From Leptospiraceae bacterium (GTDB lineage: Bacteria > Spirochaetota > Leptospiria > Leptospirales > Leptonemataceae), in contig JAVJNR010000005.1 of the NCBI GenBank assembly GCA_040217195.1, positions 544,001 through 608,000 of the forward strand: 64,000 nucleotides of DNA, given 5' to 3'. A model generated the notes under the pieces. The model ran no database searches. It was given only the letters and a program-made list of their open reading frames with translations, and was not told where the DNA came from. The position numbers and the translations under genes are program-made. This document shows positions 3,001 to 57,686 of the stretch, one piece after another. Each line of letters begins with the position of its first letter. Within the stretch, counting starts at the first letter, position 1.

Positions 3001-6000
3001 TTCTGGTCCTCGGCATGGGCTTTTTCTTCCGCATTCACATCTTCGTCGTCGATGGTTTCTTGAAGAGACTCCAGAAGGTCCAGGCGGCCCTGAAGCGAAC
3101 TGAGTGCGCTGGAGACCGTAGGACTTGCTGCTTTTGCAATATCCTCTTTGATCTCCAGAATAGCCTCGGCCCGGGCCTGAACATTTTCCGGCGCAGGGGC
3201 TCCCTGGGGATAGTCCTCCGAGCTTTGCAGATCTCGCAGGGCTTCACCGGCTTGCACGGTATTGTTCAAAGCTTCTACAAGTCCCAGTGCCTGCCTGGTT
3301 TGCTCTCGATTGTAGGCGCTTTCGTTCTTCTCACGAATGGTATCAAAATAATCGTCTTTCGCGGATTCCACCTGAGTTTGTAGAGGTATATCTGCTGCAT
3401 CCTCTACACTTTTCATCTGAGTCATCACAGCTCCCAGAGCACTGGCTGCGTTTCGCAGCTCTATCTGGATCAGTTCCTGAGCTTCGCCAGAATTCTGAAT
3501 CTCCAGATCTATTCTGGCCTGCTTGTAAGCTTCCCTGGATTCATTCAGGCGCTCTTCTGCCAGACGGAGAGTATCCGTAGTGGATTCCAGATCGTCTTTC
3601 AGATCTCCCAGGGCATCACTTCTCTGCTTTAGATTGGGCTGCGAAAGAGCGGTCCGAATAAGCTCCCGCTCTTCTGAATAGTTAAACTCTCCGGCCAGCT
3701 TTTCCATTTCCAGAGACAGAGCACGGGCCGTTCCATGCAGAGCTTTCCATCGGTTGGCAAGTGTGGATGCACTTGCATTTCCGGATAGTATCTCATCTCG
3801 AAAGGATTGCAGTCGGGAGCGAAACGGAAGCAATGGATGGGCGGAAGCATCGTCGCCACTGAACTCAGCCAGTAGAGTTCCGAGCTCTGCCAGCATTTCG
3901 TTTACATCATCTACGTCCGGAACCGTTTCTGCATCCAGTCCAGCCACATCGGAGATAAAGTCTGAACTGGACTGTAGATTTTCGCCTCTGGCTGCATACA
4001 GCTCAAAGTCTGTTTGTTCTTGAATAAGTTGTTCAATTAGTGCTTCATAAGCTGCTGGATCTGCGTCCGGATCCATGCCCTGGAGCTGAAGGGCCAGAGC
4101 TCCCGCTTCCCCGGCCGTTACATCATAGGCCAGCTGAAGTAGATCTGTTTTTGTCTTACTGGCCTGTACTCTCCAGTCTGTAACCGCAGCCATTTCCAGG
4201 CCGGCTCCGTGTTTTTCGGCTATATCTGCGTAATGTTTTACTCTACGAGCTCGCTCCAGTCTCTGAGCCTGACGATCCCGTTCCCGACGAAGGACTTCCC
4301 ATTCGTATTTCGCATCGGTCATCAAGTAGGGATCATTGGCATTACCCGTAATGTGCTGCCGATACAGTCCATCTTCCAGTTTTCCCAGGATCAGTTCCCG
4401 AAGACGCAGATCCTCCTCTGTGGACTTGTTGAAGAACTCGCTAGCTATGGCTGTTTTGATATCTGCCAGTGCTTGCTCTCGTAATTGCTTCGCAGCCTGA
4501 TCTTGCGCGGATCCTTCTTCTACATCTTCCGGCCAGAGTTCTTCTGCTCCGCCTTTCTGCTTGATAATGTCATTGATGAGCTTCGTGATTTCAATACCAT
4601 GTTCCAGATATTCCTTATCTAGACCGGCAACCAGCTCACGTATCTCCTGGATGCTGTCCATAGCTTCATAATTGAAGTCCTGGCTGTTCTGTAGCTCCTG
4701 CGCTCGCTCTACAAAGAGTCTGTTGGAGCGAATGTCGCTTTCCATGTCTCGCACATACAGAGCGTAGTTGGTTCGATTCTCTTCGTTCGCGAGCCAGTTC
4801 AGGAGCTTTTCTCGAAACGTCTCTTCGTCGAACTCTTCCAGTTCCTCTCTTAAATCCTCACCGAACTGCCGCTGATCATTCAGTAATCCAGAGGAAGAGT
4901 CTTCCGAATACAGAGTTCCATGCAATTCTTCCTGGGCTCGAAGCAGAATCAATTCGAATCGATCGATGGACTCAGCCATCTCCTGCTCTTCCTCTGTATA
5001 GAAATCCTTGAGTCGATCATTGTTCGTGGATGAGTCTCCCAGTAGCTCCAGAAGCTCCTGGTAATAGGCCTGGGCCTCCTTCGCTTCCAGAAGAGCTGCT
5101 CCGCCTCCGCGAACCATACTTGCCAGCTGTTCGGAAGAACCATTCCAGCGATCCCTTTCCTGATCTATGTAATCCTGAAGATCTGCCTCGGCCTGTGCAC
5201 GATTCTCCTCGAATTCCTGATATTTCGCTGCGTATTTCGCCCGGCCTTCTTCGATCTTTGTTCGTACAGCCTCAAGCCAGTCATCTCTCGCGCTTTTGAG
5301 CTTCTCGTGTTCTTCTTTCCAGATTTCTTCGGCTTCTGCGCGAGAGGTCTTTGTGGCTTCCATCCAGACAAGCCGATCCTGATACAGATCTTCTTCTGCT
5401 TCTTCGAATACCTGAAGCCCCTGGCTGATAATCTCCTCAACCTGTCTCTGATACTCCAGAGGATCCGGACTGCCTTCTTGAGAATTCAGAGCTTCTTCGC
5501 TCTGCTCCAGCAGGGCTGCGGTTTGCTCTTCTACCTGGATTTGCGCATTTTCTATAGCCTGATCGCCAATCTCTTCTGCGGAACCGGATTCGCTCTGCAC
5601 TTTAGCGCTGAGATCATCCGATCGTTTCAGAGCTATGTAGCGGTTCTTGGCTTTAAGAAGATAGAAATGCTCACGCATCTCAAACTTATTTCGAATCTCC
5701 GCTTCTTTCTCTGCAATGGCCTGGTCCAGAGCTTCAATCTGGGTATCGTCCAGAGGACCTATGTTGTCTCTTGCTTCCGCAATCCTGGCTTCCAGGTCCG
5801 TTTCAAAAGCCTCAACAAGGCTTTCATTCAATCCTTCTACAAGACTCTCCCAGCTATCCAGCTCCAGTTCCGGATTATTCTCGAAGGCAGCCTCCGCGGT
5901 GGAAATGATCTCTTGATACTCCTGTTCCGATATCTCAAGGCCTTCGATATTCTCTTGCTTTACACGAAAATCCGCTTCCCGTTCTAATATTAGCTGCGAA

Positions 6001-6359
6001 GCTTCCGTTTCCCAGTCTATACGGGCTGTTTCATATTCTGTATCCAGAGCATCCAGTTCTTCTTCTTGCTCATCCTCATCCAGATCGTCTTCACGAATAC
6101 GATCCTGGCGATCCTGAATCTCCTCAGCCGCATCTTCTTCCCAGTCTGCTTTTAGTGATATGAGACCTGCCTGTACATAGCTCCGCCACTGATCCAGATC
6201 CTGCATATTTGTGGCGCGATTCAGATAGCTTTCCAGAGCCTTCTTATCTTCGCCATCGAAGTCTCGGAATGGTTCAGCAACGAGGCCGGGAGGGAAAACA
6301 AAGATGGTAAGAAAATTAAGGATCAACCAGAAGCTTATGGATTTTTGAATCCAGTTCAT
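1..6359 (-). CDS. Giant secreted acidic coiled-coil protein, >=2119 aa, C-terminus runs off the left edge; resembles Leptospira 'putative large structural protein' (TIGR04388-like) N-terminal region
   Basis: ATG at 6359 gives MNWIQKSISFWLILNFLTIFVFPPGLVA-EPF (signal peptide), then ...DQWRSYVQAGLISLKADWEEDA...ARIDWETEASQLILERE; internal GNANDPYLMTDAKYEWEVLRRER; same frame still open at positions 3-110 (DFQDYIFGLRLKDFLADKTVTGSTIAEQKESFAVL). The ORF track reports nothing in this frame, consistent with no stop inside the window. Confidence 0.85.
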   Translation of the reverse strand, partial: MNWIQKSISFWLILNFLTIFVFPPGLVAEPFRDFDGEDKKALESYLNRATNMQDLDQWRSYVQAGLISLKADWEEDAAEEIQDRQDRIREDDLDEDEQEEELDALDTEYETARIDWETEASQLILEREADFRVKQENIEGLEISEQEYQEIISTAEAAFENNPELELDSWESLVEGLNESLVEAFETDLEARIAEARDNIGPLDDTQIEALDQAIAEKEAEIRNKFEMREHFYLLKAKNRYIALKRSDDLSAKVQSESGSAEEIGDQAIENAQIQVEEQTAALLEQSEEALNSQEGSPDPLEYQRQVEEIISQGLQVFEEAEEDLYQDRLVWMEATKTSRAEAEEIWKEEHEKLKSARDDWLEAVRTKIEEGRAKYAAKYQEFEENRAQAEADLQDYIDQERDRWNGSSEQLASMVRGGGAALLEAKEAQAYYQELLELLGDSSTNNDRLKDFYTEEEQEMAESIDRFELILLRAQEELHGTLYSEDSSSGLLNDQRQFGEDLREELEEFDEETFREKLLNWLANEENRTNYALYVRDMESDIRSNRLFVERAQELQNSQDFNYEAMDSIQEIRELVAGLDKEYLEHGIEITKLINDIIKQKGGAEELWPEDVEEGSAQDQAAKQLREQALADIKTAIASEFFNKSTEEDLRLRELILGKLEDGLYRQHITGNANDPYLMTDAKYEWEVLRRERDRQAQRLERARRVKHYADIAEKHGAGLEMAAVTDWRVQASKTKTDLLQLAYDVTAGEAGALALQLQGMDPDADPAAYEALIEQLIQEQTDFELYAARGENLQSSSDFISDVAGLDAETVPDVDDVNEMLAELGTLLAEFSGDDASAHPLLPFRSRLQSFRDEILSGNASASTLANRWKALHGTARALSLEMEKLAGEFNYSEERELIRTALSQPNLKQRSDALGDLKDDLESTTDTLRLAEERLNESREAYKQARIDLEIQNSGEAQELIQIELRNAASALGAVMTQMKSVEDAADIPLQTQVESAKDDYFDTIREKNESAYNREQTRQALGLVEALNNTVQAGEALRDLQSSEDYPQGAPAPENVQARAEAILEIKEDIAKAASPTVSSALSSLQGRLDLLESLQETIDDEDVNAEEKAHAEDQKQRALADLEKDITRLQDVLKSTEEAVRLALLKKLDREPDESEVPTNDELKDRSEELRDDMLEFAELVAGDLKQFLTDHRGNSYSAMIAASDSDIATAVTDVTADGEDPEASETVASLRFSKDWIIDSRDLIDAANEEPDSDDPTPKEKRWDALLAQLDRVEESSTYWLEFENSKPESSGDAWVTEFRTEREDLRDTLDTVLSSDDANIEDVFYGLNTDERELLLGYSGIRTGNSTYLRRDLNQIRDLIQRDLDQLDTDFELIFEREEAKNLTRRIHKAQKELAEAHPEYGETQARINLLRTQLLEMREAIDGAADATERGNLEAKYASDMAVLEERIEELQDIIDAAKPDVEARQAEIRRLSAYLQELKQGKGSSSQFMNAVSGFFEEEMKQLNEDQQKRQILDQDNNQNQDPVPVIETLGLALGVFVPDIRGEARKSGDTFLISDDFASLGLTDVESIDDIAGVLNESLPGPVLEALSENLLDYASNPDNSGRLSEEMQAAIMMLQGHLIEVAAAREIIDMRDSSVEEIKDRADRMKRNSAHLQEVLPAWKGFEDQLMEALQNGASPSAILAILDSQENFELLEEEARRNVDGDEKTDVPEAIAQRLSLYEDAHELLRNYKADQVLASALSSFQSQLQAELNPSNDFEAERDPEYYLNQSQNVDFEIAISRIENLADSGSLETLKESEGQEESPSDPDSDETLRSLLTAKLPELASGSLSRSIIMEIMVNEPELTGDALKAALIQELNDAKSSLTSSLDEMMQAALTAQMLFSYLKGEDGKNGAWDGELAALTDTQKEKAFIIALQSFNSESSKEAFNPESYPEEFVNLLVVRGSELAEKRYQDFLEGQDLPGSVSEEERPGLNLNGIPVFFQKQILARDFHAFLDNASALTDFDAFSSLSGFSNSEILGAYFESRKMEPRQTGLLNEILAVRQWNEMKAEADARAGTDFPDNLLEADESEYSADFQDYIFGLRLKDFLADKTVTGSTIAEQKESFAVL

Positions 6360-6470
6360 GAGACGCTCTCCAAAAAAGAATTATTATCGAGCGTCGCTAT
6401 ACGAGCGAATGTTGAGCCTAAATGGCAAAAGAGCGAAAAGGGCAGGATTCGAGCGCAGTGGCTCGACTTC

Positions 6471-7058
6471 TCAGGGCCGCATACGATTTTTCCCGGTCAC
6501 CTTCTCATCGGATGAACTGGCCGACGTTTGTTTCTGTGAAAGCAACCTGGACAGCAGGATTCTCAACCCTTCCATTATATCGGACCGATTCACCGACTTC
6601 AATTCTTCCTGATGCAACGATCCTTGAGCAACCGTAGAGCCCCGAACTAGATCCAGAATCTCAAGAGAAATAGTAATCGAAAACGTTCTGCGAATCAAAG
6701 TCTCCTCTGGTCGAATGTCTAATTCGCCGCGCAACCAGTATCGACCAATGTAACTTCGATTAAGCATCAATAGCCCCTTTCTGTTAAGAAAACCATCAGA
6801 AGTTCGAAACCGATCCATATTCGCATCCAGAACCCGGGGATCCACTCCGCGTCGGCGCAGGGAAAAAATTAAACTGGATAAAAGAGAGGATCTATCAATA
6901 AACCTGGACGAAAGGCCTTGCATGGCGATATTTCCCAGACCGATTCTTCTGGTCTCCGGCGGGTTGTCCGAAAACCAGAATCGGGAATTCCAGTCCCGAC
7001 ATCCAATCATCAAAAAAACGCATAGCAATGACAGAACGATTCGCTTTAGTGACAACAT
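6471..7058 (-). CDS. Lipoprotein of unknown function (possibly CsgG/LpoB-like alpha/beta fold)
   Basis: Lipobox-like LMIG-C after hydrophobic stretch; overlaps upstream ORF; directly precedes the giant ORF. Confidence 0.6.
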   Translation of the reverse strand: MLSLKRIVLSLLCVFLMIGCRDWNSRFWFSDNPPETRRIGLGNIAMQGLSSRFIDRSSLLSSLIFSLRRRGVDPRVLDANMDRFRTSDGFLNRKGLLMLNRSYIGRYWLRGELDIRPEETLIRRTFSITISLEILDLVRGSTVAQGSLHQEELKSVNRSDIMEGLRILLSRLLSQKQTSASSSDEKVTGKNRMRP

Positions 7059-7600
7059 CGCACTCCCAGTCTGGGACTTTCCTTTTGGGGAGAGACTCTG
7101 CGAAACGTAAAGCAGTCAGCCATTCCTATGATGACCGGATCCCCTTCGGGCCCGGATACCCATTCGGCAGCATTACCCGCCATATCCGAAGGTGCATTTG
7201 GACTTCCGGAGCAGGCAGCACCTGTTGGCAAAATCCCGGACCTATCGGAGCAGGCCTTTGATTGTTGAGCTTCAGCGGCCTTGCAGGCCCATATCCATTC
7301 CCGGTAGTTGCAAATCCGAGCAGCGGATGCAGAACACAGCCTTTTTGCTTCTTCATAATTAATATTTGTAAGCGGTATCAGTCCCTGTCCTCCAGGGGAT
7401 TTGGAAGCACTCTTCGCACGTTCAAAACGTTCTATTCCATAATTCACTCCAAACAACTGAAGGTAACTCACATAGGGTACATCTACCTTTCTTTCAGAAG
7501 TATGCACCCTCCGATCTCTGCCTTCCTTCGTAGAGATTCTACAATTTGACAAGGAAATGGAAAGAATGCAAATGCCTGCGATAATCAAAAGACGCATCAA
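7046..7600 (-). CDS. FGE-sulfatase (SUMF1/C-type-lectin-like) domain lipoprotein
   Basis: Lipobox-like SLSN-C; motifs NYEEAKRLC, REW, DMAGNAAEWV, GVRCC. Confidence 0.75.
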   Translation of the reverse strand: MMRLLIIAGICILSISLSNCRISTKEGRDRRVHTSERKVDVPYVSYLQLFGVNYGIERFERAKSASKSPGGQGLIPLTNINYEEAKRLCSASAARICNYREWIWACKAAEAQQSKACSDRSGILPTGAACSGSPNAPSDMAGNAAEWVSGPEGDPVIIGMADCFTFRRVSPQKESPRLGVRCCH

Positions 7601-49916: not shown

Positions 49917-51920
49917 TTAAGATTCCTTCTTATGCGAGCCCACGCTAGAGCCCAGGATTCGTTTTTGAAGATCCACCAGTGTGGCAAAAACATTCGATTT
50001 TAGATGAATGAATTCAACAATACCCTTCTCCGTAAGGGAATCTCGATTCTCTGGACTACCGGCGATAATAACTGGCAGGCCTTTTTCTTTTGCAATAGGC
50101 AGAATCTGGTCCGCCAGTTCTTCGTACTCTTCATCGCTGGAACAAAGAGTAAGCGCAACAATAGATGTACTTTTTCCAAGCCGGTCCTTTAGATAGGTTG
50201 CGGCCTCTTTCGAATTTCCCAGAGAACCCGGATCTTCCACCGAGAAACCAGCACAGCCAAGGAAATTCTGCGAAAATGCAGCACGAGCCCTTTGCATTGC
50301 CAGTTTTCCCGCAGGAATAAGAAGAATTTCCGGGCGAAAGCCTTTGCTGGATGCCACCGATTGGAAGTGAATTCTAAGATCTTCAAAGCCTGATGTGGCC
50401 CTTCCAAATTTCACTGGAGGCACAGCCTTACCTTTGGCATCGTCGCTTTGAAGTTGAACCCCGTTGATCCAGTGAGCGGAATACGGATCGAATCTCTTAT
50501 CTTTCACCTCTTCTTTCAGAGAGGGATACTGGTTCACCCCAACATAGGTAGATTGTCGGCTTTCCACCTTACCCAGGGCCTCTGCAAGCTGCTGCGATAG
50601 TTTCTTCTGGATAGCACCGGACTTCAGGTTCTGAAGAAAGCCACCATTGCTTTCCAGTTCCTGAAAATCCTGAAAAGCGGCGGCGGCCAGCTCATCGGTC
50701 AGATTCTCCAGATAGTAGGAGCCACCGCCAGGGTCGGCTACCTGCTGAAGGTAACTTTCATGACGTATCAGGTTTTGAATATTTCGCGCCATCCTTCTGG
50801 AAAAGGCATCCTCTCGATCTGTAATCAAGTGAAACGGATGTACTGTATGTCTTTGCGAACCACCCAGCACAGCACTGATAGATTGCGTGGTGGAGCGAAG
50901 CAGATTCGTGTAGGGATCGAGAGCAGACAGTTCGAAAACAGAGGTTTCTGTGGACTGATAAAGAGCCGCCGCATCCTTCCACTGGCCCGTAGTTTTTCCT
51001 TCATTTTCCAGAGTCTTCGCATACGCGCTGGCAATTTGCGCCCATAGATATCTGGCCGCTCGAAGCTGAGCCACTTCAGGAAAGAAACTGGAGGATACTG
51101 CACTGCGAACATGGACCGCTTTTAGAGCTTCCTGGAATTCCAGCCCCAGCTCAAGTAGAGAGGCTAGATAGTAGGAAGCCAGTGAAAGACCAAGGCTTAG
51201 CTGAGTTCTATTGTTAGCACCTGCGTAGCGAAACAGATGGGCACTGACAGAAAAAAACGGGCGACTTCCTTTCTTTAAAAAATCGGCTGCTGCCTCCAGG
51301 TCTTCTGTGAGCTCCGTTTCCATGGCCGATGCTTCTACCGCGCCTGTGCGTAGATAACGCGCCACCGGATCCACAGAAATAAGAACCTGATCAGATGATT
51401 TTGTTGCAGCCCAGCCCAATAGCGCGGCTGCATCCTTCATGTGAATCTCCAGATCCAGATTTACTGATATCCGGCTCAGATCGATTTTCTCACAGAATTC
51501 CGCTGCATGGCCCGCATAGGATGCATCGTTTACCAGTAGTCTCAAACTACCCAGTTCATGATTGTAAAACTCCTGGAGCAATGCATCCAGCTGCGCTTCT
51601 TTATGATGCAGAGAAAAGTCGATGGTTTGCTCCGTAAGCCAGACATTGCTCCTGGAACGAATGCCTCTAAGGTAAGGGAACCTACCGGGCACATGACTTT
51701 CCAGGCCCTGGGGCTTTTCCTCCGGAACATAGAATGGCTTTAGTGTGAATCCCTCTCCGGTTTTCCAGTCCAGTTTGCCCAGAGCTTTTTGGGGATCCTC
51801 CGGATTCTTAAGATCTTTCAGTATCTTTTCTTCCCAGGATTTGCGATCCAGGGCAGAGAAATCTTCGAATAATTTCAGGTTCGGTTCTGGAAATAGTTCC
51901 GGGTCCAGCTTGGCGCTCAT
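49917..51920 (-). CDS. mutA: Methylmalonyl-CoA mutase, small subunit
   Basis: W-KI-KDLK, DPYTNLLR, ADPGGGSYYLE, VGVNQYP, RAAFSQNF, LCSSDEEY; lacks DxHxxG. Confidence 0.9.
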   Translation of the reverse strand: MSAKLDPELFPEPNLKLFEDFSALDRKSWEEKILKDLKNPEDPQKALGKLDWKTGEGFTLKPFYVPEEKPQGLESHVPGRFPYLRGIRSRSNVWLTEQTIDFSLHHKEAQLDALLQEFYNHELGSLRLLVNDASYAGHAAEFCEKIDLSRISVNLDLEIHMKDAAALLGWAATKSSDQVLISVDPVARYLRTGAVEASAMETELTEDLEAAADFLKKGSRPFFSVSAHLFRYAGANNRTQLSLGLSLASYYLASLLELGLEFQEALKAVHVRSAVSSSFFPEVAQLRAARYLWAQIASAYAKTLENEGKTTGQWKDAAALYQSTETSVFELSALDPYTNLLRSTTQSISAVLGGSQRHTVHPFHLITDREDAFSRRMARNIQNLIRHESYLQQVADPGGGSYYLENLTDELAAAAFQDFQELESNGGFLQNLKSGAIQKKLSQQLAEALGKVESRQSTYVGVNQYPSLKEEVKDKRFDPYSAHWINGVQLQSDDAKGKAVPPVKFGRATSGFEDLRIHFQSVASSKGFRPEILLIPAGKLAMQRARAAFSQNFLGCAGFSVEDPGSLGNSKEAATYLKDRLGKSTSIVALTLCSSDEEYEELADQILPIAKEKGLPVIIAGSPENRDSLTEKGIVEFIHLKSNVFATLVDLQKRILGSSVGSHKKES

Positions 51921-52144
51921 GACTCCAGATTCCAGAAATAAGCCTCTATGTCAGCAGAAAATCGAAGGTAAGACGGAAGCCCCACGCCGAGAGCTAAACC
52001 GGAACGGCCCGGCTCGTTACATAAATTGCAGAAAAGATCGCTGCCAGTATTTAGAGGAGGATCAAATCTTACCTTGTAAGTCAGCCAAAATGTCCTTCCT
52101 ATGATGGCCAGCCCCCATGGTGAATGGGCTGCGGATAATGCCAT

Positions 52145-52321
52145 TCATTTTCGGTTAAACCCGAAGATTGTGGATCCACTGGAGTAACCTTCGCCCGGAT
52201 CCGCAACAGAGCCCCAGATTGACCAATAATGGGTATCCGGTACATGGTCGAAGCCTTCCCCGTATAAGGACTCATTGATTTTGGACCGCCGAAACTTTTC
52301 TTCCGCTTTTGAATCTCTCAT
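52145..52321 (-). CDS. Possible small ORF (58 aa) or gene remnant
   Basis: MRDSKAEEKFRRSKINESLYGEGFDHVPDTHYWSIWGSVADPGEGYSSGSTIFGFNRK*; AGGGGT upstream; no motif. Confidence 0.25.
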   Translation of the reverse strand: MRDSKAEEKFRRSKINESLYGEGFDHVPDTHYWSIWGSVADPGEGYSSGSTIFGFNRK

Positions 52322-52619
52322 ATACGACCCCTGGCGAATGAACCTCCAAATGCAAACCTCTCGGGCCTACCGTACTTTATAGCATCCCTTTCAGTTTTCC
52401 GCACTAAATCGGTTTTTCCCGAAGCCCTGGCTAAAACCGACAGTTGTAAGGATTTGTGGCTCCCGAAAATATGTTGCCTGCTTCTATTTAAGGCCCCTCA
52501 TAGGCCGCAGTGTCGCGATACCTTTGTCTACCGACAGAGTAAGTTATGCAAACTCTTGGAGAGATTGAACCGGGAGTATCGAAACTTTAGCGACCAGTGG
52601 GTAAGGATGAGCCATAAAC

Positions 52620-54080
52620 ATGCAACAGTATCCCTCTTCTCAGGCCTCCCCGCCGGACAACGGCACCAATAGAGAAATCAGGACCGCGACAGCCGATCAG
52701 GGGAATCCCTTTGGTCATCGAATCACATTCAAAGAGGCGACTAAAGTATGGTGGCGAGTGGCCATTTTGAGCTTCGGAGGTCCTGCAGGCCAGATCGCGG
52801 TAATGCACCGTATTCTTGTGGATGAAAAGCAATGGATTAGCGAGAGTCGCTTCCTGCATGCTTTGAATTACTGCATGGTCCTCCCTGGACCTGAGGCCCA
52901 GCAATTGGCCACCTATATAGGTTGGCTCTTGCATGGCATAAGAGGTGGACTGGTTGCAGGTGCCCTTTTCGTGCTGCCGGGCTTTCTCAGTATTCTGGTC
53001 CTCAGCCTGCTCTACGCCGGCTTCCAGGATGTGTCCCTGGTGCAGGCCTTGTTTTTCGGCATAAAAGCGGCGGTGCTGGCAATCGTAATCCAGGCAGTAA
53101 TCCGGATCGGCAAGCGGGCGCTCAAGAATACCTACATGTACGGTTTGGCGGCAGTCGCATTTGTGGCGCTCTTCTTCTTTGCCATTCCCTTCCCAATCGT
53201 AATCATTAGCGCTGCATTTATTGGTCTTGTGGGGCGATATGTTGATCTGAAACGGTTTGTAATCATCAAGGGGCATGATACCCCGGACGAATCCGGGCAT
53301 ACCATCGATGCCATGCTGAACAGCGGTGCAGCTAACCATACGAAAGCATCACCGGCTCGAGCACTCAGGGTACTCGCACTCTGGCTTCCGCTATGGTTTG
53401 CGCCCCTTATAGCAATGGTTCTGACCCTGGGTTACGAAAATGTATTCACCCAGATCGGACTCTTCTTCAGTAAGCTGGCAGTGGTTACTTTTGGCGGCGC
53501 CTATTCGGTGTTGGCCTATATGGCCCAGGAGGCAGTACTAAACTATGGATGGTTGGCTCCTGGAGAAATGCTGGATGGTCTGGGCATGGCCGAGACGACA
53601 CCGGGCCCCTTGATTCAAGTTGTGCAATTCGTAGGCTTTCTTGCTGCCTTCAGGGAACCGGGTGTACTGAATCCCTTTGCTGCAGGCCTACTGGCATCGG
53701 TACTGGCGACCTGGGTGACTTTTGTCCCTTGCTTTTTGTGGATTTTTCTTGGTGCTCCCTATGTGGAAACGTTGCGCCATAATCAGACCGTGAGTGCAGC
53801 GCTTTCGGCCGTGACGGCCGCTGTGGTGGGCGTGATGCTCAATCTGGCCCTCTGGTTCGCAGTGCATGTCGCATTCGAAGAGGTTGACACTCTTCAGTTT
53901 CATGGAATACAAATCCTATTGCCCAACTGGAGTAGCATCCAAATCGTCAGCGTGTTGCTGGCGACGGGAGCCTTCATAGCCATTCTTCGTTTCAAGGTAG
54001 CTATGCTACCGGTTATCCTGGTCAGCGCACTGCTGGGGACCGCTTACTATTTCCTATTCGGAGTTTCCCCGCCGGTATGA
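52620..54080 (+). CDS. chrA: Chromate efflux transporter (long-chain CHR)
   Basis: SFGGPAGQIAVMH, LPGPEAQQLATY, TFGGAYSVL, ETTPGPLI. Confidence 0.95.
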   Translation: MQQYPSSQASPPDNGTNREIRTATADQGNPFGHRITFKEATKVWWRVAILSFGGPAGQIAVMHRILVDEKQWISESRFLHALNYCMVLPGPEAQQLATYIGWLLHGIRGGLVAGALFVLPGFLSILVLSLLYAGFQDVSLVQALFFGIKAAVLAIVIQAVIRIGKRALKNTYMYGLAAVAFVALFFFAIPFPIVIISAAFIGLVGRYVDLKRFVIIKGHDTPDESGHTIDAMLNSGAANHTKASPARALRVLALWLPLWFAPLIAMVLTLGYENVFTQIGLFFSKLAVVTFGGAYSVLAYMAQEAVLNYGWLAPGEMLDGLGMAETTPGPLIQVVQFVGFLAAFREPGVLNPFAAGLLASVLATWVTFVPCFLWIFLGAPYVETLRHNQTVSAALSAVTAAVVGVMLNLALWFAVHVAFEEVDTLQFHGIQILLPNWSSIQIVSVLLATGAFIAILRFKVAMLPVILVSALLGTAYYFLFGVSPPV

Positions 54081-54227
54081 CCGGGCCCAGAACGAAAAGA
54101 GCGCTGAATGTTCCTGATAGCGTATAAGATTCAAGCACTCATCTTCATGCAGACAGGGTGTCGATAGCCGGCGTGCCATGAGCGACCGCACCGGACTGAG
54201 AGCGGCCAGATTCCAATTAGAACCTCC

Positions 54228-54447
54228 CACGCGTTATTACACGAACCGATCGGGCCGGGGTTCCACTTATGGCCGCCCGCGCGTTTTAACACGAACCAAG
54301 CCGCCCGAGGTTCGCCTTATGACCGGCCACGCGTTTAACACGAACCCAGCAGCTCGGGTTCCACTTATGACCTTCCACGCGTTATAACGCGCACCAAGCA
54401 GCCCGGGTTCCACTTAGGGCCGCCAGGTGGTAAAAACCGAACCCAGC
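54228..54447. repeat. Tandem array of four (plus partial) 48-50 bp palindromic units
   Basis: CGCGTT at 54230, 54280, 54330 and 54378; units carry GAACC...GGTTC inverted pairs and CTTA. Confidence 0.85.
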
Positions 54448-54460
54448 CCTACCAAATAAG

Positions 54461-54873
54461 AAATCGCGAAGCGGTTTCTTCCATACCAGCGATTTACCCT
54501 GGGCCCTAAGCGGCGGGAGCCTGGGGGATGCGAAAAACGAGGACAGGAGGTCCGAGTCTGCGCTCGTTTGTCCACGGAGGGGCGACCGAGCGCAGGAGCG
54601 TGCCTCAGGCTGCCGCAGCACGAAAGCGGTCCTAAACCGCGAAGCGGTTTCTTCCATAGTAGCGGTTTACCCGGATCCTTATTTTGCGATCGTGGTGGGA
54701 GCCGCTTCATAAGGCGAAGACAGGAAGTCTGAGCCGAGCGCTCGTTTGGATATGGACGATGAACATGGATGTTCAAGTGTCCGCGGAGCCACGGAGGGCG
54801 AGAGCGGACGGGACAGCCGGGCGCTCAGAAGTGGCTCCCACCGCGACCAACAGGATAAGCGGTCCTAAACCGC
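54461..54873 (+). ncRNA. Two tandem homologous structured units with GGA-loop hairpins (candidate Csr/Rsm-like sRNA or MITE-like element)
   Basis: 21-bp identity at 54465-54485 and 54638-54658; 17-bp direct repeat at 54624-54640 and 54857-54873; shared core GACAGGARGTCYGAG...GCGCTCGTTTG...CCACGGAGGG; long closing stems. Confidence 0.5.
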
Positions 54874-56076
54874 CTGGGCTTTCTCTTTTTTCCGTTCCAT
54901 GGCTGCTTTCTTACGATAGTAAGCCACCTGCTTCTCCAGTTCCACAAGGTCCTGGCAGATGATCTTTCCGCCGTCCAGTTTTAGCCATCGATTCTTGAGC
55001 ATATCCAGGATGAGATGCTCGTCTTTGTTCGGATCATACCCCACCATTTTAAGCAGGTCTTTGCCACCGATGTCAAAGTTATGATTGGAACGAGGGGCAA
55101 TCTTGATATGGTTTTTCTCTGCCAGCGTTAGCAGTGTGTCATAGAGTCTGCCCTGAGGATCGGAAATCATCAGGTTGGCCAGCTGACGATAGGCCATCCA
55201 GATTCGCTCGGATAATAGAGTAATAAGACGTGTTGCTAACTGCGGTTGAGCCTTTACCATGGCTTCGAAGTTTGCTTTGTTAATGGCCAGCATGGTGGCT
55301 TTTTCAGCACAGATGGCAGATGCACTTCTGGGTTTATTATCCAGAATTGCCATCTCTCCGAAGATATCACCGGTTTGAATTACAGCCAGCATCACTTCCT
55401 GACCGTCTACCATCTTGGTAATCTTGATTCGGCCGCCCTGAATAATATAGAGTTCAAATCCAGGCTCATTTTCGCAGAAGATCATATCATCTGGATTGAA
55501 AGTGCGATTGATGCTTTTTTCCATGTAGGCCGGAGCTTTGAGTGGCTTATTCATGGATTGAAGCCTCATCTTGGCCTGGCTTACATTCTTTCCTTTGGGA
55601 TTCCATTGAAGGTAGCGCTGAAATGCATAGGCTGCATGATTGAACCTCTCTTCTTTGAAATAGAACTCTCCCAGTTCAAAAAGATGGGATGGATCCTCTT
55701 CAAGAGCCGTTCTAAAGGAAAGTCGAGTAATAGTGCTATCAAAGGCCCTCAACTTCATGGAGAAGGAGCGGATGATCTTCATGGCCACGGGAGCATTTTT
55801 CTGAATCAGTAAGCCGAACTGATCATTATTTACCTGAATGAGGGAGACATCGGTCTGAGCCACCACGGTTTCAATTCGGCTATGGCCAGACATGGCACTT
55901 TCCACGCCAAAAAAGTCCCCGGGTCCCAGAAGTGTGGTTCCTTCCTCGCCGGCCACAGGGGTCTCTTTCGAAGTACGTACCTTTCCCTGGCGAACGATAT
56001 AGAAGTGCCCGACTTCCCTTTTCCCCTCAATAATGATGTAGGAGCCGGCACGATAATTAACCATTTGAAAGGCCAT
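54865..56076 (-). CDS. Crp/Fnr-like protein with two cNMP-binding domains separated by a TPR
   Basis: GPGDFFG...RIET; TPR (YFKEERFNHAAYAFQRY); GDIFGEMAILDNKPRSASA. Confidence 0.9.
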   Translation of the reverse strand: MAFQMVNYRAGSYIIIEGKREVGHFYIVRQGKVRTSKETPVAGEEGTTLLGPGDFFGVESAMSGHSRIETVVAQTDVSLIQVNNDQFGLLIQKNAPVAMKIIRSFSMKLRAFDSTITRLSFRTALEEDPSHLFELGEFYFKEERFNHAAYAFQRYLQWNPKGKNVSQAKMRLQSMNKPLKAPAYMEKSINRTFNPDDMIFCENEPGFELYIIQGGRIKITKMVDGQEVMLAVIQTGDIFGEMAILDNKPRSASAICAEKATMLAINKANFEAMVKAQPQLATRLITLLSERIWMAYRQLANLMISDPQGRLYDTLLTLAEKNHIKIAPRSNHNFDIGGKDLLKMVGYDPNKDEHLILDMLKNRWLKLDGGKIICQDLVELEKQVAYYRKKAAMERKKEKAQAV

Positions 56077-56157
56077 AGCTTCCTACACTCTCCCTTGTTC
56101 CGGCAAGATCATGGTATACAGATTCAATATCGGAACGGATAGTACGATCAACCAGTT

Positions 56158-57090
56158 TCAGGGACTTTTTTTTGGTTCCCCGTTCCCGGGTTCCGAAGGT
56201 TCCGAAGGTTCCGAAGGTTCCACAGAGGAGCCGGAATCCGCCTTCTCTATGCCTTCACCCATCCGATCCAGAGCTCTTTGTCCAGTTGATGGCCTCCCGT
56301 CGGCTGTGTCAATTCCAGTGTCATCGGCTTCGGATTCCTGGGACTTTTCTGTGCTGTTATCCATGGGAAAGAGAGGTTTTCCGGAATCCTGGTTCTCCTG
56401 ACCGGACAAATTGTCCTGGTTTGTGCCTGGATTGGAGGGATTCTCGTCTGTCCTGGGCGATTCGATGAATCGAAAGGAACGTTCCAGCAATTGGGCCTCT
56501 CGTTGCTCGGCAGTGCCCGGAAATCGATTTTGAATGTTTTGCAGAAGGCTACGAGCCTTGGAATACTGCCCTTGCTGGATATGAATCCTTGCCATTTCCA
56601 GCATGGATCGCGGCTCCTTCTGATCTGGAGTTTCCAGAATTGCCGATTGCTGATAGCGCTTCAATGCAGCTCGATGATCACCGGTTTTTCTTTGTAGATC
56701 GGCCAGTTCCATGCGGGCCCGGCCTGCCATGGGATGGCTGGGATAGAGAATCAAAAAATCCTGCAATCTTCTGCGGGCCGAGTCATACTGACCTTCGGAG
56801 ATCTGCTCCAGAATAAAGCGAAATCTTCGGTCCGCTTCCTGGTTATACAATACTTTGAACGATTCGTTTCGTTTTTCCCGGTTCGTCTTATAATTACGAA
56901 AATCCGCCGGAGACGATGGGCCTCCGGAAGTAGGCTCATTTACATTCTCGCCTGGATTATTTCCTGGATTGTTTTGCGGATTGTCTGGATTTTCGGAGCC
57001 CGGCTCCGCCGGTGAAGTATTCGGATCTTCTGCACCCAGAGGTGCGCAGAGCCAGAGGGTGCCGAAGAGTATCAGCGTGGCTCTTTTCAT
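56158..57090 (-). CDS. Exported TPR (BamD/YfiO-like) protein with low-complexity termini
   Basis: Signal MKRATLILFGTLWLCAPLGA; YPSHPMA and RFPGTAE TPR ends; EPSEPSEPSEP tail. Confidence 0.72.
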   Translation of the reverse strand: MKRATLILFGTLWLCAPLGAEDPNTSPAEPGSENPDNPQNNPGNNPGENVNEPTSGGPSSPADFRNYKTNREKRNESFKVLYNQEADRRFRFILEQISEGQYDSARRRLQDFLILYPSHPMAGRARMELADLQRKTGDHRAALKRYQQSAILETPDQKEPRSMLEMARIHIQQGQYSKARSLLQNIQNRFPGTAEQREAQLLERSFRFIESPRTDENPSNPGTNQDNLSGQENQDSGKPLFPMDNSTEKSQESEADDTGIDTADGRPSTGQRALDRMGEGIEKADSGSSVEPSEPSEPSEPGNGEPKKSP

Positions 57091-57155
57091 GGAAGTTTTT
57101 AGTGGGCCAGGCATGGTAAATTCGGGGAAGTGAACCTGCAAGGCAGACTCACAGC

Positions 57156-57686
57156 TCAGCCTGTACTCTGGGAAGATTGTTGCAAGAAGGATTCGAACCA
57201 TCGCTGATCGATATCGGACACCTCGCATTCAGACAGCTTCAATTGTTCAAAGTATTGCAGGAGTATTCCCATATGGGCGGCCTGCTCATGCTCGGTATTC
57301 CATTCACCCCGGTCTGTTCCGGTGGCAATAATGGCCTCTTCTCTGACCTGTTCGCAGAATTCGGATGACTTGCTTCGAAAGATCATCGTTGCCGATACTA
57401 GATCGAATCGAATGGTATCAACGATCTTAAGAAATTCTGCATCACTGAGATCGAAATGCCGACTGGCCACTTCCGTTTGAAAGTAATCTCCCCAGGTTAC
57501 TACTTCAGGCTCTGCGCCATACTTTTCCTTCAGAGCCTGGATTTCCTCCAGCTCAACATAGTTACATTGAGCAAAGCGCTCCACGGTTTCTCGAAGTTCA
57601 ATAAGAGCAGCGATTTTTCGACCGGATAACTGTCCGCGCTGGACCATTCCGGAAAGTTGGCTGTGCAGTCCGTTGATTTCCATCAT
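57156..57686 (-). CDS. Hypothetical protein
   Basis: 176-aa ORF co-oriented with neighbours; TWGDYFQTE, DTIRFDL. Confidence 0.7.
   Translation of the reverse strand: MMEINGLHSQLSGMVQRGQLSGRKIAALIELRETVERFAQCNYVELEEIQALKEKYGAEPEVVTWGDYFQTEVASRHFDLSDAEFLKIVDTIRFDLVSATMIFRSKSSEFCEQVREEAIIATGTDRGEWNTEHEQAAHMGILLQYFEQLKLSECEVSDIDQRWFESFLQQSSQSTG

What the first reader, a model, noticed from the sequence alone, without database searches (positions are those of the whole stretch)
54461..54873. Tandem structured RNAs presenting GGA in hairpin loops: candidate CsrA-sponge sRNAs in a spirochete
Seen on the + strand, six GGA-loop hairpins: GGAC-AGGAG-GTCC (54541-53), TCC-ACGGAG-GGG (54571-82), GCGC-AGGA-GCGT (54590-601), AGAC-AGGAA-GTCT (54718-30), TGAACA-TGGA-TGTTCA (54760-75) and GCC-ACGGAG-GGC (54788-99). 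I count 17 GGA in total. Each unit is closed by a long stem whose sequence differs between units while pairing is kept (GCGGCGGGAGCCTGGGG/CCTCAGGCTGCCGC; CGTGGTGGGAGCCGCTTC/GAAGTGGCTCCCACCGCG), and GGAC/GTCC vs AGAC/GTCT is a compensatory change. Knowledge: CsrB/RsmY/RsmZ sequester CsrA through ANGGA loops; spirochete CsrA is known to be antagonised by FliW, and I know of no described spirochete Csr sRNA. Inference: an RNA-based CsrA antagonist or a mobile repeat carrying CsrA sites. Similar GGA-rich dispersed repeats may exist in other bacteria, so novelty needs checking.
Basis: partly seen in the sequence, partly recalled or inferred. Interest (0 to 1): 0.8.

Follow-up and report, generated by a model that had tools for sequence, protein, structure and literature searches.

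The report
Nested mobile GGA-hairpin repeat array
The stretch is a fast-changing array of small folded repeats, related to the known but untested TwoAYGGAY RNA motif, whose loops look like docking sites for the regulator protein CsrA and one of whose parts behaves like a tiny jumping insert; nothing yet shows that it is a dedicated regulatory RNA.

Summary
The structure is real (fold z -7.3; 5 of 6 claimed GGA hairpins form). It behaves as a repeat array, not a conserved sRNA gene. Each unit is a long basal stem with two GGA hairpins, the TwoAYGGAY (Rfam RF01731) layout, but scores 18.1 bits against a cut-off of 43. Eleven units from five congeners covary strongly and keep GGA (11/11, 10/11). 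A 53-nt double hairpin (54757-54809) is an insert: one near-identical strain's contig lacks it. Related inserts occur 12 times in this genome, in 18 of 81 genomes of the order, in Desulfosporosinus and a Lysobacterales genome, and sit in other GGA loops, five tRNA T-loops and broken genes. With the loop left free, 76 of 78 matches read ANGGAN, the CsrA site. csrA and fliW are present. The GGA strand is antisense to the flanking crp-like gene; no promoter was found and expression is untested. The sponge idea is published for TwoAYGGAY, a CsrA-like RNA was predicted in Leptospira biflexa, and this scan noted similar elements in three other genomes. New here: filled and empty sites, and recursive nesting.

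The parts
52620..54080 (+). Chromate transporter gene; only + strand gene pointing into the array; not found in the syntenic stretches fetched from four congeners
   Evidence: Pfam PF02417 E 3e-77; tblastn against those four stretches found nothing
54208..54454 (.). Five 49-50-nt repeats of a second dispersed family; copy number varies between strains
   Evidence: contigs of X1 and X4 skip 97 and 146 nt here; half-site within 1.5 kb of 6 of 12 core copies against 0.96% of random positions (pattern made after seeing the repeats)
54461..54477 (+). Linker hairpin with a three-base GAA loop; repeated at 54634-54650 and in congeners (GAA or GCA)
54487..54640 (+). Unit 1: conserved outer arms, basal stem 54510-54526/54603-54616, two GGA hairpins
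54538..54556 (+). Short hairpin, AGGAG loop, closed by a GA/GA internal loop
54557..54595 (+). Long hairpin, ACGGAG loop; an empty site for the insert seen in unit 2
54660..54873 (+). Unit 2: outer arms, basal stem 54691-54708/54828-54845, AGGAA hairpin (54715-54733), host hairpin carrying the insert
54757..54809 (+). 53-nt double-hairpin insert (ATGGAT and ACGGAG loops) placed right after the GGA of the host loop; aligns to RF01731 positions 49-109
   Evidence: 18.1 bits, cut-off 43; absent from one X1 contig; in 3 of 11 aligned units
54857..54873 (.). Right arm, identical to 54624-54640; holds the last codons and stop (54865-54867) of the crp-like gene
54865..56076 (-). Gene with two cyclic-nucleotide-binding domains (crp-like); anchor of the array in congeners
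   Evidence: Pfam PF00027; 98-99% protein identity in G002, G004, G005

Best explanation
A hypervariable array of TwoAYGGAY-like structured repeats at the 3' end of a crp-like gene. Shown: each unit folds on the + strand into a basal stem with two GGA hairpins; stems turn over with pairing kept while loops stay A(N)GGAN; a ~52-nt double hairpin of the same kind inserts cleanly, with no consistent target duplication, into GGA loops, tRNA T-loops and genes; unit number and content vary within a species. Inferred: the inserts are non-autonomous elements moved as a folded single strand by an enzyme encoded elsewhere (not identified); arrays also expand and contract by recombination between the repeated arms. 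Inferred: loops are kept because a protein reads them, most likely CsrA (about 0.6), so copies transcribed on the GGA strand would bind CsrA and add up to a diffuse, strain-variable sink; that this locus is a dedicated regulated sponge gene is less likely (about 0.2).
For: Fold z -7.3. 11 units from 5 genomes: second GGA 11/11, first 10/11, insert in 3/11; 22 of 29 pairs change on both sides, 90.9% of cells paired against 68.9% shuffled. + strand preferred: 51 G-U and 3 A-C facing pairs on +, 29 and 18 on -; strand gap larger than the shuffle mean in 11 of 11. Strain polymorphism with ~99% alike flanks: X1 lacks the insert, X4 has 116 other letters in place of 54508-54857. Model R1: 12 matches at E<0.001 in G000 (4 were seeds), 18 of 81 genomes of the order with 1-38 matches, 33, 24 and 55 in G081, G082, G085. 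Five 51-nt copies at the same T-loop position in a tRNA array of G024; leaving them out lets ARAGORN more tRNAs. Copies inside remnants of integrase, HTH and Hint-domain genes and in one arm of palindromic repeats in G085. Many clusters hold GGA hairpins on both strands. Loop-free scan: 76 of 78 loops ANGGAN, 50 of 52 distinct cores, matching the site in PMC7652899; leptospiral CsrA binds GGA (PMC8668096).
Against: No mobilising gene: no Y1 transposase in G000 (93.7% complete), no family shared among 68 neighbouring proteins picked from 204. The empty allele within the species rests on one contig of depth 5 with 72 letters on the short side. Target sites differ in sequence and some junctions are off by one base. 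The array has stayed at the same locus in 5 of 7 genomes of the genus searched with strong one-strand constraint, which also fits a functional RNA. No csrA hit in G084 or G085, which carry 3 and 55 copies, though both are draft bins and 28 of 31 genomes in the G085 relatives search have csrA. Both-side changes in palindromes can also come from template switching (recalled).
Confidence: 0.68

Rival explanations
1. A dedicated CsrB/RsmZ-like sponge gene: the array is transcribed on the + strand from its own promoter and titrates CsrA alongside FliW; unit turnover tunes valency.
For: 5 GGA loops in the fold; loops match ANGGAN/AGGAN; + strand bias with G-U pairs; same locus in 5 genomes; csrA present; a T-rich tract follows unit 2.
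Against: No sigma-70 promoter in 54000-55000 or at the G005 locus; in G002-G005 no + strand ORF over 138 aa points into the array; 1-4 units, differing between near-identical strains; no Rfam CsrB/Rsm match; the T tract is coding sequence of the crp-like gene; very long stable stems, whereas SELEX sites had short stems (PMC7652899).
Confidence: 0.2
2. DNA-level hairpin elements: the GGA loops are read by a recombinase or HUH nuclease on single-stranded DNA and the likeness to CsrA sites is incidental.
For: Clean insertions without consistent duplication; linker hairpins with three-base GAA/GCA loops, recalled as stable in DNA; mixed orientation; two carrier bins without a csrA hit.
Against: Free and fixed loop positions match the CsrA rule exactly; RNA energies favour + in 13 of 13 units, DNA energies in only 9 of 13; no such enzyme found; three-base-loop hairpins are not enriched in the window (1 strict match).
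Confidence: 0.12

Closest known systems
TwoAYGGAY RNA motif (Rfam RF01731; PMC2864571 table passage; PMC4333381 passages; bioRxiv 10.64898/2026.09.22.753630 abstract, passages and Discussion)
   Same: Two GGA hairpins on a poorly conserved basal stem, tandem GA, many copies with large differences between strains, neighbouring repeats, extra GGA hairpins in variants, CsrA-sponge role proposed but untested. RF01731 reaches its cut-off in 4 of 81 genomes of this order and in G081 and G082.
   Different: Below the cut-off here (18.1 of 43 bits; no match at E<=1 in G000); first loop usually five bases; tandem same-strand units rather than divergent doublets; filled and empty sites and nesting of one module in another's loop, which I did not see in the passages read; outer arms built from the host gene's 3' end.
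CsrB/CsrC/RsmY/RsmZ sponges (PMC7652899 passages)
   Same: Several A(N)GGAN loops on one strand.
   Different: No Rfam match; no promoter or transcript shown; multi-copy and mobile-like; long stable stems; host has fliW.
Predicted CsrA-like ncRNA of Leptospira biflexa (PMC4863578 passages)
   Same: Same order, same proposed role.
   Different: Computational prediction only; its sequence was not found in the 9 supplement files searched (one scanned file unreadable), so relation to this family is unknown.
REP/REPIN repeats with RAYT transposase (recalled)
   Same: Short palindromic intergenic repeats in variable arrays.
   Different: No Y1 transposase in G000; strand-specific conserved loops and heavy covariation.

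Membership tests
TwoAYGGAY (RF01731) | [quoted passage not shown] | tested here: met
TwoAYGGAY (RF01731) | AYGGAY in both terminal loops | tested here: inconclusive
   Insert has ATGGAT and ACGGAG; units mostly have an AGGAN five-base first loop
TwoAYGGAY (RF01731) | Tandem GA pairs in a stem | tested here: met
   GA/GA internal loop under the first hairpin nearly invariant
TwoAYGGAY (RF01731) | Score at or above the 43-bit gathering cut-off | tested here: not met
   18.1 bits, E 3.9, positions 49-109; none in G000 at E<=1
TwoAYGGAY (RF01731) | Multi-copy with strain-level variation | tested here: met
TwoAYGGAY (RF01731) | Pseudomonadota extension with 3' pseudoknot and 5-6-nt upstream repeats | not tested
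   extended model not available
CsrB/Rsm sponge sRNA | Multiple GGA motifs in hairpin loops | tested here: met
   5 loops against 0.89 in shuffles
CsrB/Rsm sponge sRNA | Match to an Rfam Csr/Rsm family | tested here: not met
CsrB/Rsm sponge sRNA | Discrete transcript with own promoter and terminator | tested here: inconclusive
   no sigma-70 or terminator match on +; other promoter types not covered; expression not testable
CsrB/Rsm sponge sRNA | GGA-dependent binding and titration of CsrA | not testable with these tools
   needs gel shift and genetics
CsrB/Rsm sponge sRNA | Cognate csrA in the genome | tested here: met
   one copy beside fliW
CsrB/Rsm sponge sRNA | Activation by BarA-UvrY/GacS-GacA | not tested
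   not searched
REP/REPIN-RAYT | Y1 (RAYT) transposase in the genome | tested here: not met
   PF01797 0 matches in G000, 6 of 14 control genomes; genome 93.7% complete

The most novel reading that the evidence does not exclude
The ~52-nt double hairpin is a non-autonomous insertion element that travels as a folded single strand, targets hairpin loops (its own GGA loops, tRNA T-loops, other repeats) and uses CsrA binding for its persistence; recursive insertion builds multivalent CsrA sponges from scratch, giving FliW-type bacteria such as spirochetes and Desulfosporosinus an RNA layer of CsrA control and showing how CsrB-like RNAs can originate.
Probability: 0.2. Interest if true: 0.82.

Novelty: new variant of a known kind. 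Interest (0 to 1): 0.5.

Why it matters
TwoAYGGAY has been of unknown function since 2010; the 2026 preprint suspects both CsrA sponging and mobile-element-like spread and calls the link unresolved. This locus gives filled and empty versions of one site, exact junctions, and a 53-nt minimal module shared between a spirochete family and Desulfosporosinus, which makes both ideas directly testable. If the copies bind CsrA in vivo, lineages thought to control CsrA only through FliW have an RNA input that varies from strain to strain.

Tried and rejected
Rfam at 52000-57500 gave only two chance snoRNA hits. A first strict regular expression for the module found 0. No RNA holder listed among 17 runs; this is no evidence on expression. 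X2 and X3 covered only 3 of 30 bins and told nothing about the array. No match in viral contigs, plasmids or phages. Co-occurrence with csrA within the order is uninformative: 78 of 81 genomes have it. No shared mobilising gene. The ORFs of 91-120 aa that overlap the array were set aside: stems change with pairing kept and units differ in length by non-multiples of three. An integron attC reading was dropped by eye against the recalled core consensus, not by a tool. Target-site duplication: the 4-base repeat around G085 copies is also the usual first four bases of the module elsewhere, so it was not taken as a duplication. The 50-nt repeats do not fold better than shuffles as DNA (3 tested, z 1.05, -0.09, -1.32). 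Two Breaker-lab surveys had no GGA or CsrA passage; PMC9788540 was not relevant. Searches for a description of T-loop or loop-targeted GGA inserts and of a spirochete Csr sRNA found none beyond the papers cited; the library lacks most subscription papers. Rows dropped: G002a (near-identical to G002b) and G004b2 (atypical) from the 13 units before alignment A3; 9 of 17 cores from A1 before building R1.

Full report
Observation. The quoted strings and the count of 17 GGA are correct. The region folds far better than shuffles (z -7.33, 0 of 100). Five of the six hairpins form; the one at 54590-54601 does not. GGA count alone is weakly enriched (14 of 500 shuffles reach 17), GGA in loops clearly (5 against 0.89, maximum 4 of 100). 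No Rfam family reaches its cut-off.

Setting. The window lies in G000 (4.6 Mb, 93.7% complete), between a chromate transporter gene (+) and a crp-like gene (-). A record title places a congener in Leptonemataceae. csrA is single-copy beside fliW. The 17-nt right arm of both units is a copy of the crp-like gene's end and holds its stop codon. Five 49-50-nt repeats of a second family lie upstream.

The orthologous locus. Of 7 genomes of the genus searched, 5 (G000 included) match the array. G002-G005 hold one to four units per array with the same outer arms. The crp-like genes are 84-86% alike as DNA, while the basal stems share almost no sequence. In 11 aligned units (13 extracted, 2 dropped) the second GGA is in 11, the first in 10; 22 of 29 pairs change on both sides and 90.9% of cells pair against 68.9% in shuffles (structure from RNAalifold of the same alignment). 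The + strand is the folded one: 51 G-U and 3 A-C on +, 29 and 18 on -. In G002, G003 and G004 a 1961-2143-aa GAF/cyclase gene lies between two copies of the array and ends in the same three codons supplied by the arm. The chromate gene is not in those stretches. In all four congeners the long flanking genes run on the - strand, so read-through would carry the complement of the GGA loops. No sigma-70 promoter was found.

Variation within the species. Contigs of four metagenome runs were laid on 51500-55600. Two were informative, with flanks about 99% alike. X1 lacks two of the 50-nt repeats and has a plain GGA loop in place of 54751-54809, that is, no 53-nt insert (one contig, depth 5, 72 letters on the short side). 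X4 lacks three repeats and has 116 other letters in place of 54508-54857.

The insert is a dispersed element. A model from 8 of 17 cores finds 12 copies at E<0.001 in G000 (four were seeds) and matches in 18 of 81 genomes of the order, 1 to 38 each, with only 70 candidates scored per genome. A pattern that fixes the scaffold and leaves the loop free found 78 matches in 76 loci among 185,579 species genomes: 47 in Desulfosporosinus and kin, 31 in others, mostly Leptospirales by title. 76 of 78 loops are ANGGAN, with positions 2 and 6 varying (50 of 52 distinct cores). That is the site bound by CsrA/RsmE (PMC7652899 passages); leptospiral CsrA binds GGA (PMC8668096 passages). Copies sit directly after the GGA of another hairpin (3 of 11 units; more), inside opposite-strand GGA loops in Desulfosporosinus, at one T-loop position in five tRNA genes of G024, where leaving them out yields 3 more ARAGORN calls, behind tRNA genes with a repeated 3' part, in integrase, HTH and Hint-domain gene remnants, and in palindromic repeats in G085 (55 copies). 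Many clusters carry GGA hairpins on both strands. No consistent target duplication and no shared mobilising gene were found.

Against the CsrA link: no csrA hit in draft bins G084 and G085; 28 of 31 genomes in the G085 relatives search have it, so incompleteness is the likelier cause. Within the order csrA is in 78 of 81 genomes, so co-occurrence says nothing.

Mechanism. Shown: one-strand fold, loop constraint, multi-copy spread, filled and empty sites. Inferred: movement as a folded single strand by an unknown enzyme, array change by recombination between arms, and loop conservation through protein binding, most likely CsrA (about 0.6). A dedicated sponge gene at this locus is possible (about 0.2); expression could not be tested.

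Known relatives. 54757-54811 aligns to the core of TwoAYGGAY at 18.1 bits, cut-off 43; RF01731 has matches in 20 of 81 genomes of the order, 4 over the cut-off, none in this genus (30 candidates scored per genome). Gardner and Eldai proposed TwoAYGGAY as a CsrA sponge (PMC4333381 passages). Li et al. report variable copy number, flanking repeats, extra GGA hairpins, and propose sponging and mobile-like spread (bioRxiv 10.64898/2026.09.22.753630: abstract, passages, Discussion); 'leptospir' does not occur in its main text, and its figures and supplements, which list taxa, were not visible. A CsrA-like ncRNA was predicted in L. biflexa (PMC4863578 passages). So it works like TwoAYGGAY but fails the score test. 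Three earlier notes of this scan describe like elements in other genomes; I had reached TwoAYGGAY before seeing them, and they are not independent support. Loop-targeted nesting and T-loop inserts were not found in searches.

Verdict. Real; new variant of a known kind; interest 0.5.

Noticed in passing
L169 (G024:C1:4552000-4563000) 4958-7146: A tRNA gene array in which five genes carry a 51-nt GGA double hairpin at the same T-loop position; three become ARAGORN-callable without it. A group II intron-type reverse transcriptase gene lies 2 kb away.
   Followed up: partly
L029 8677-14562, L030 67-6498, L031 4953-11384: A 1961-2143-aa GAF/adenylate-guanylate cyclase gene flanked by direct copies of the array in three congeners, taking its last codons and stop from the repeat arm; absent at this locus in G000 and G005, consistent with gain or loss by recombination between arms.
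   Followed up: partly
window 54208-54454; G000 C5:523950-524360, C4:311850-312200, C10:289280-289420, C1:18320-18380: Second repeat family with inverted 11-nt arms and a variable spacer, often near GGA cores (6 of 12). The arms recall a tyrosine-recombinase half-site and the tRNA T-loop (recalled, untested).
   Followed up: partly
L023, L025-L027 (genus g22): RF01731-scoring elements antisense and downstream of a tRNA-Pro/Arg/His cluster, alternating with partial tRNA-His copies that hold an insert in the T-loop; 14 of 16 genomes of that genus have a match.
   Followed up: partly
G000 C8:70897-71221: Seven alternating GGA-loop hairpins in tandem on the - strand, the densest GGA-hairpin cluster in the genome; not matched by model R1.
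   Followed up: no
G000 C1:1-50000: Region rich in decayed mobile and Hint-domain toxin-like gene fragments; it holds 6 of the 12 core copies.
   Followed up: partly
window 51920-54100: The chromate transporter gene and about 700 nt before it are not in the syntenic stretches of four congeners but are present in strains of X1 and X4: a species-specific gain beside the array.
   Followed up: partly
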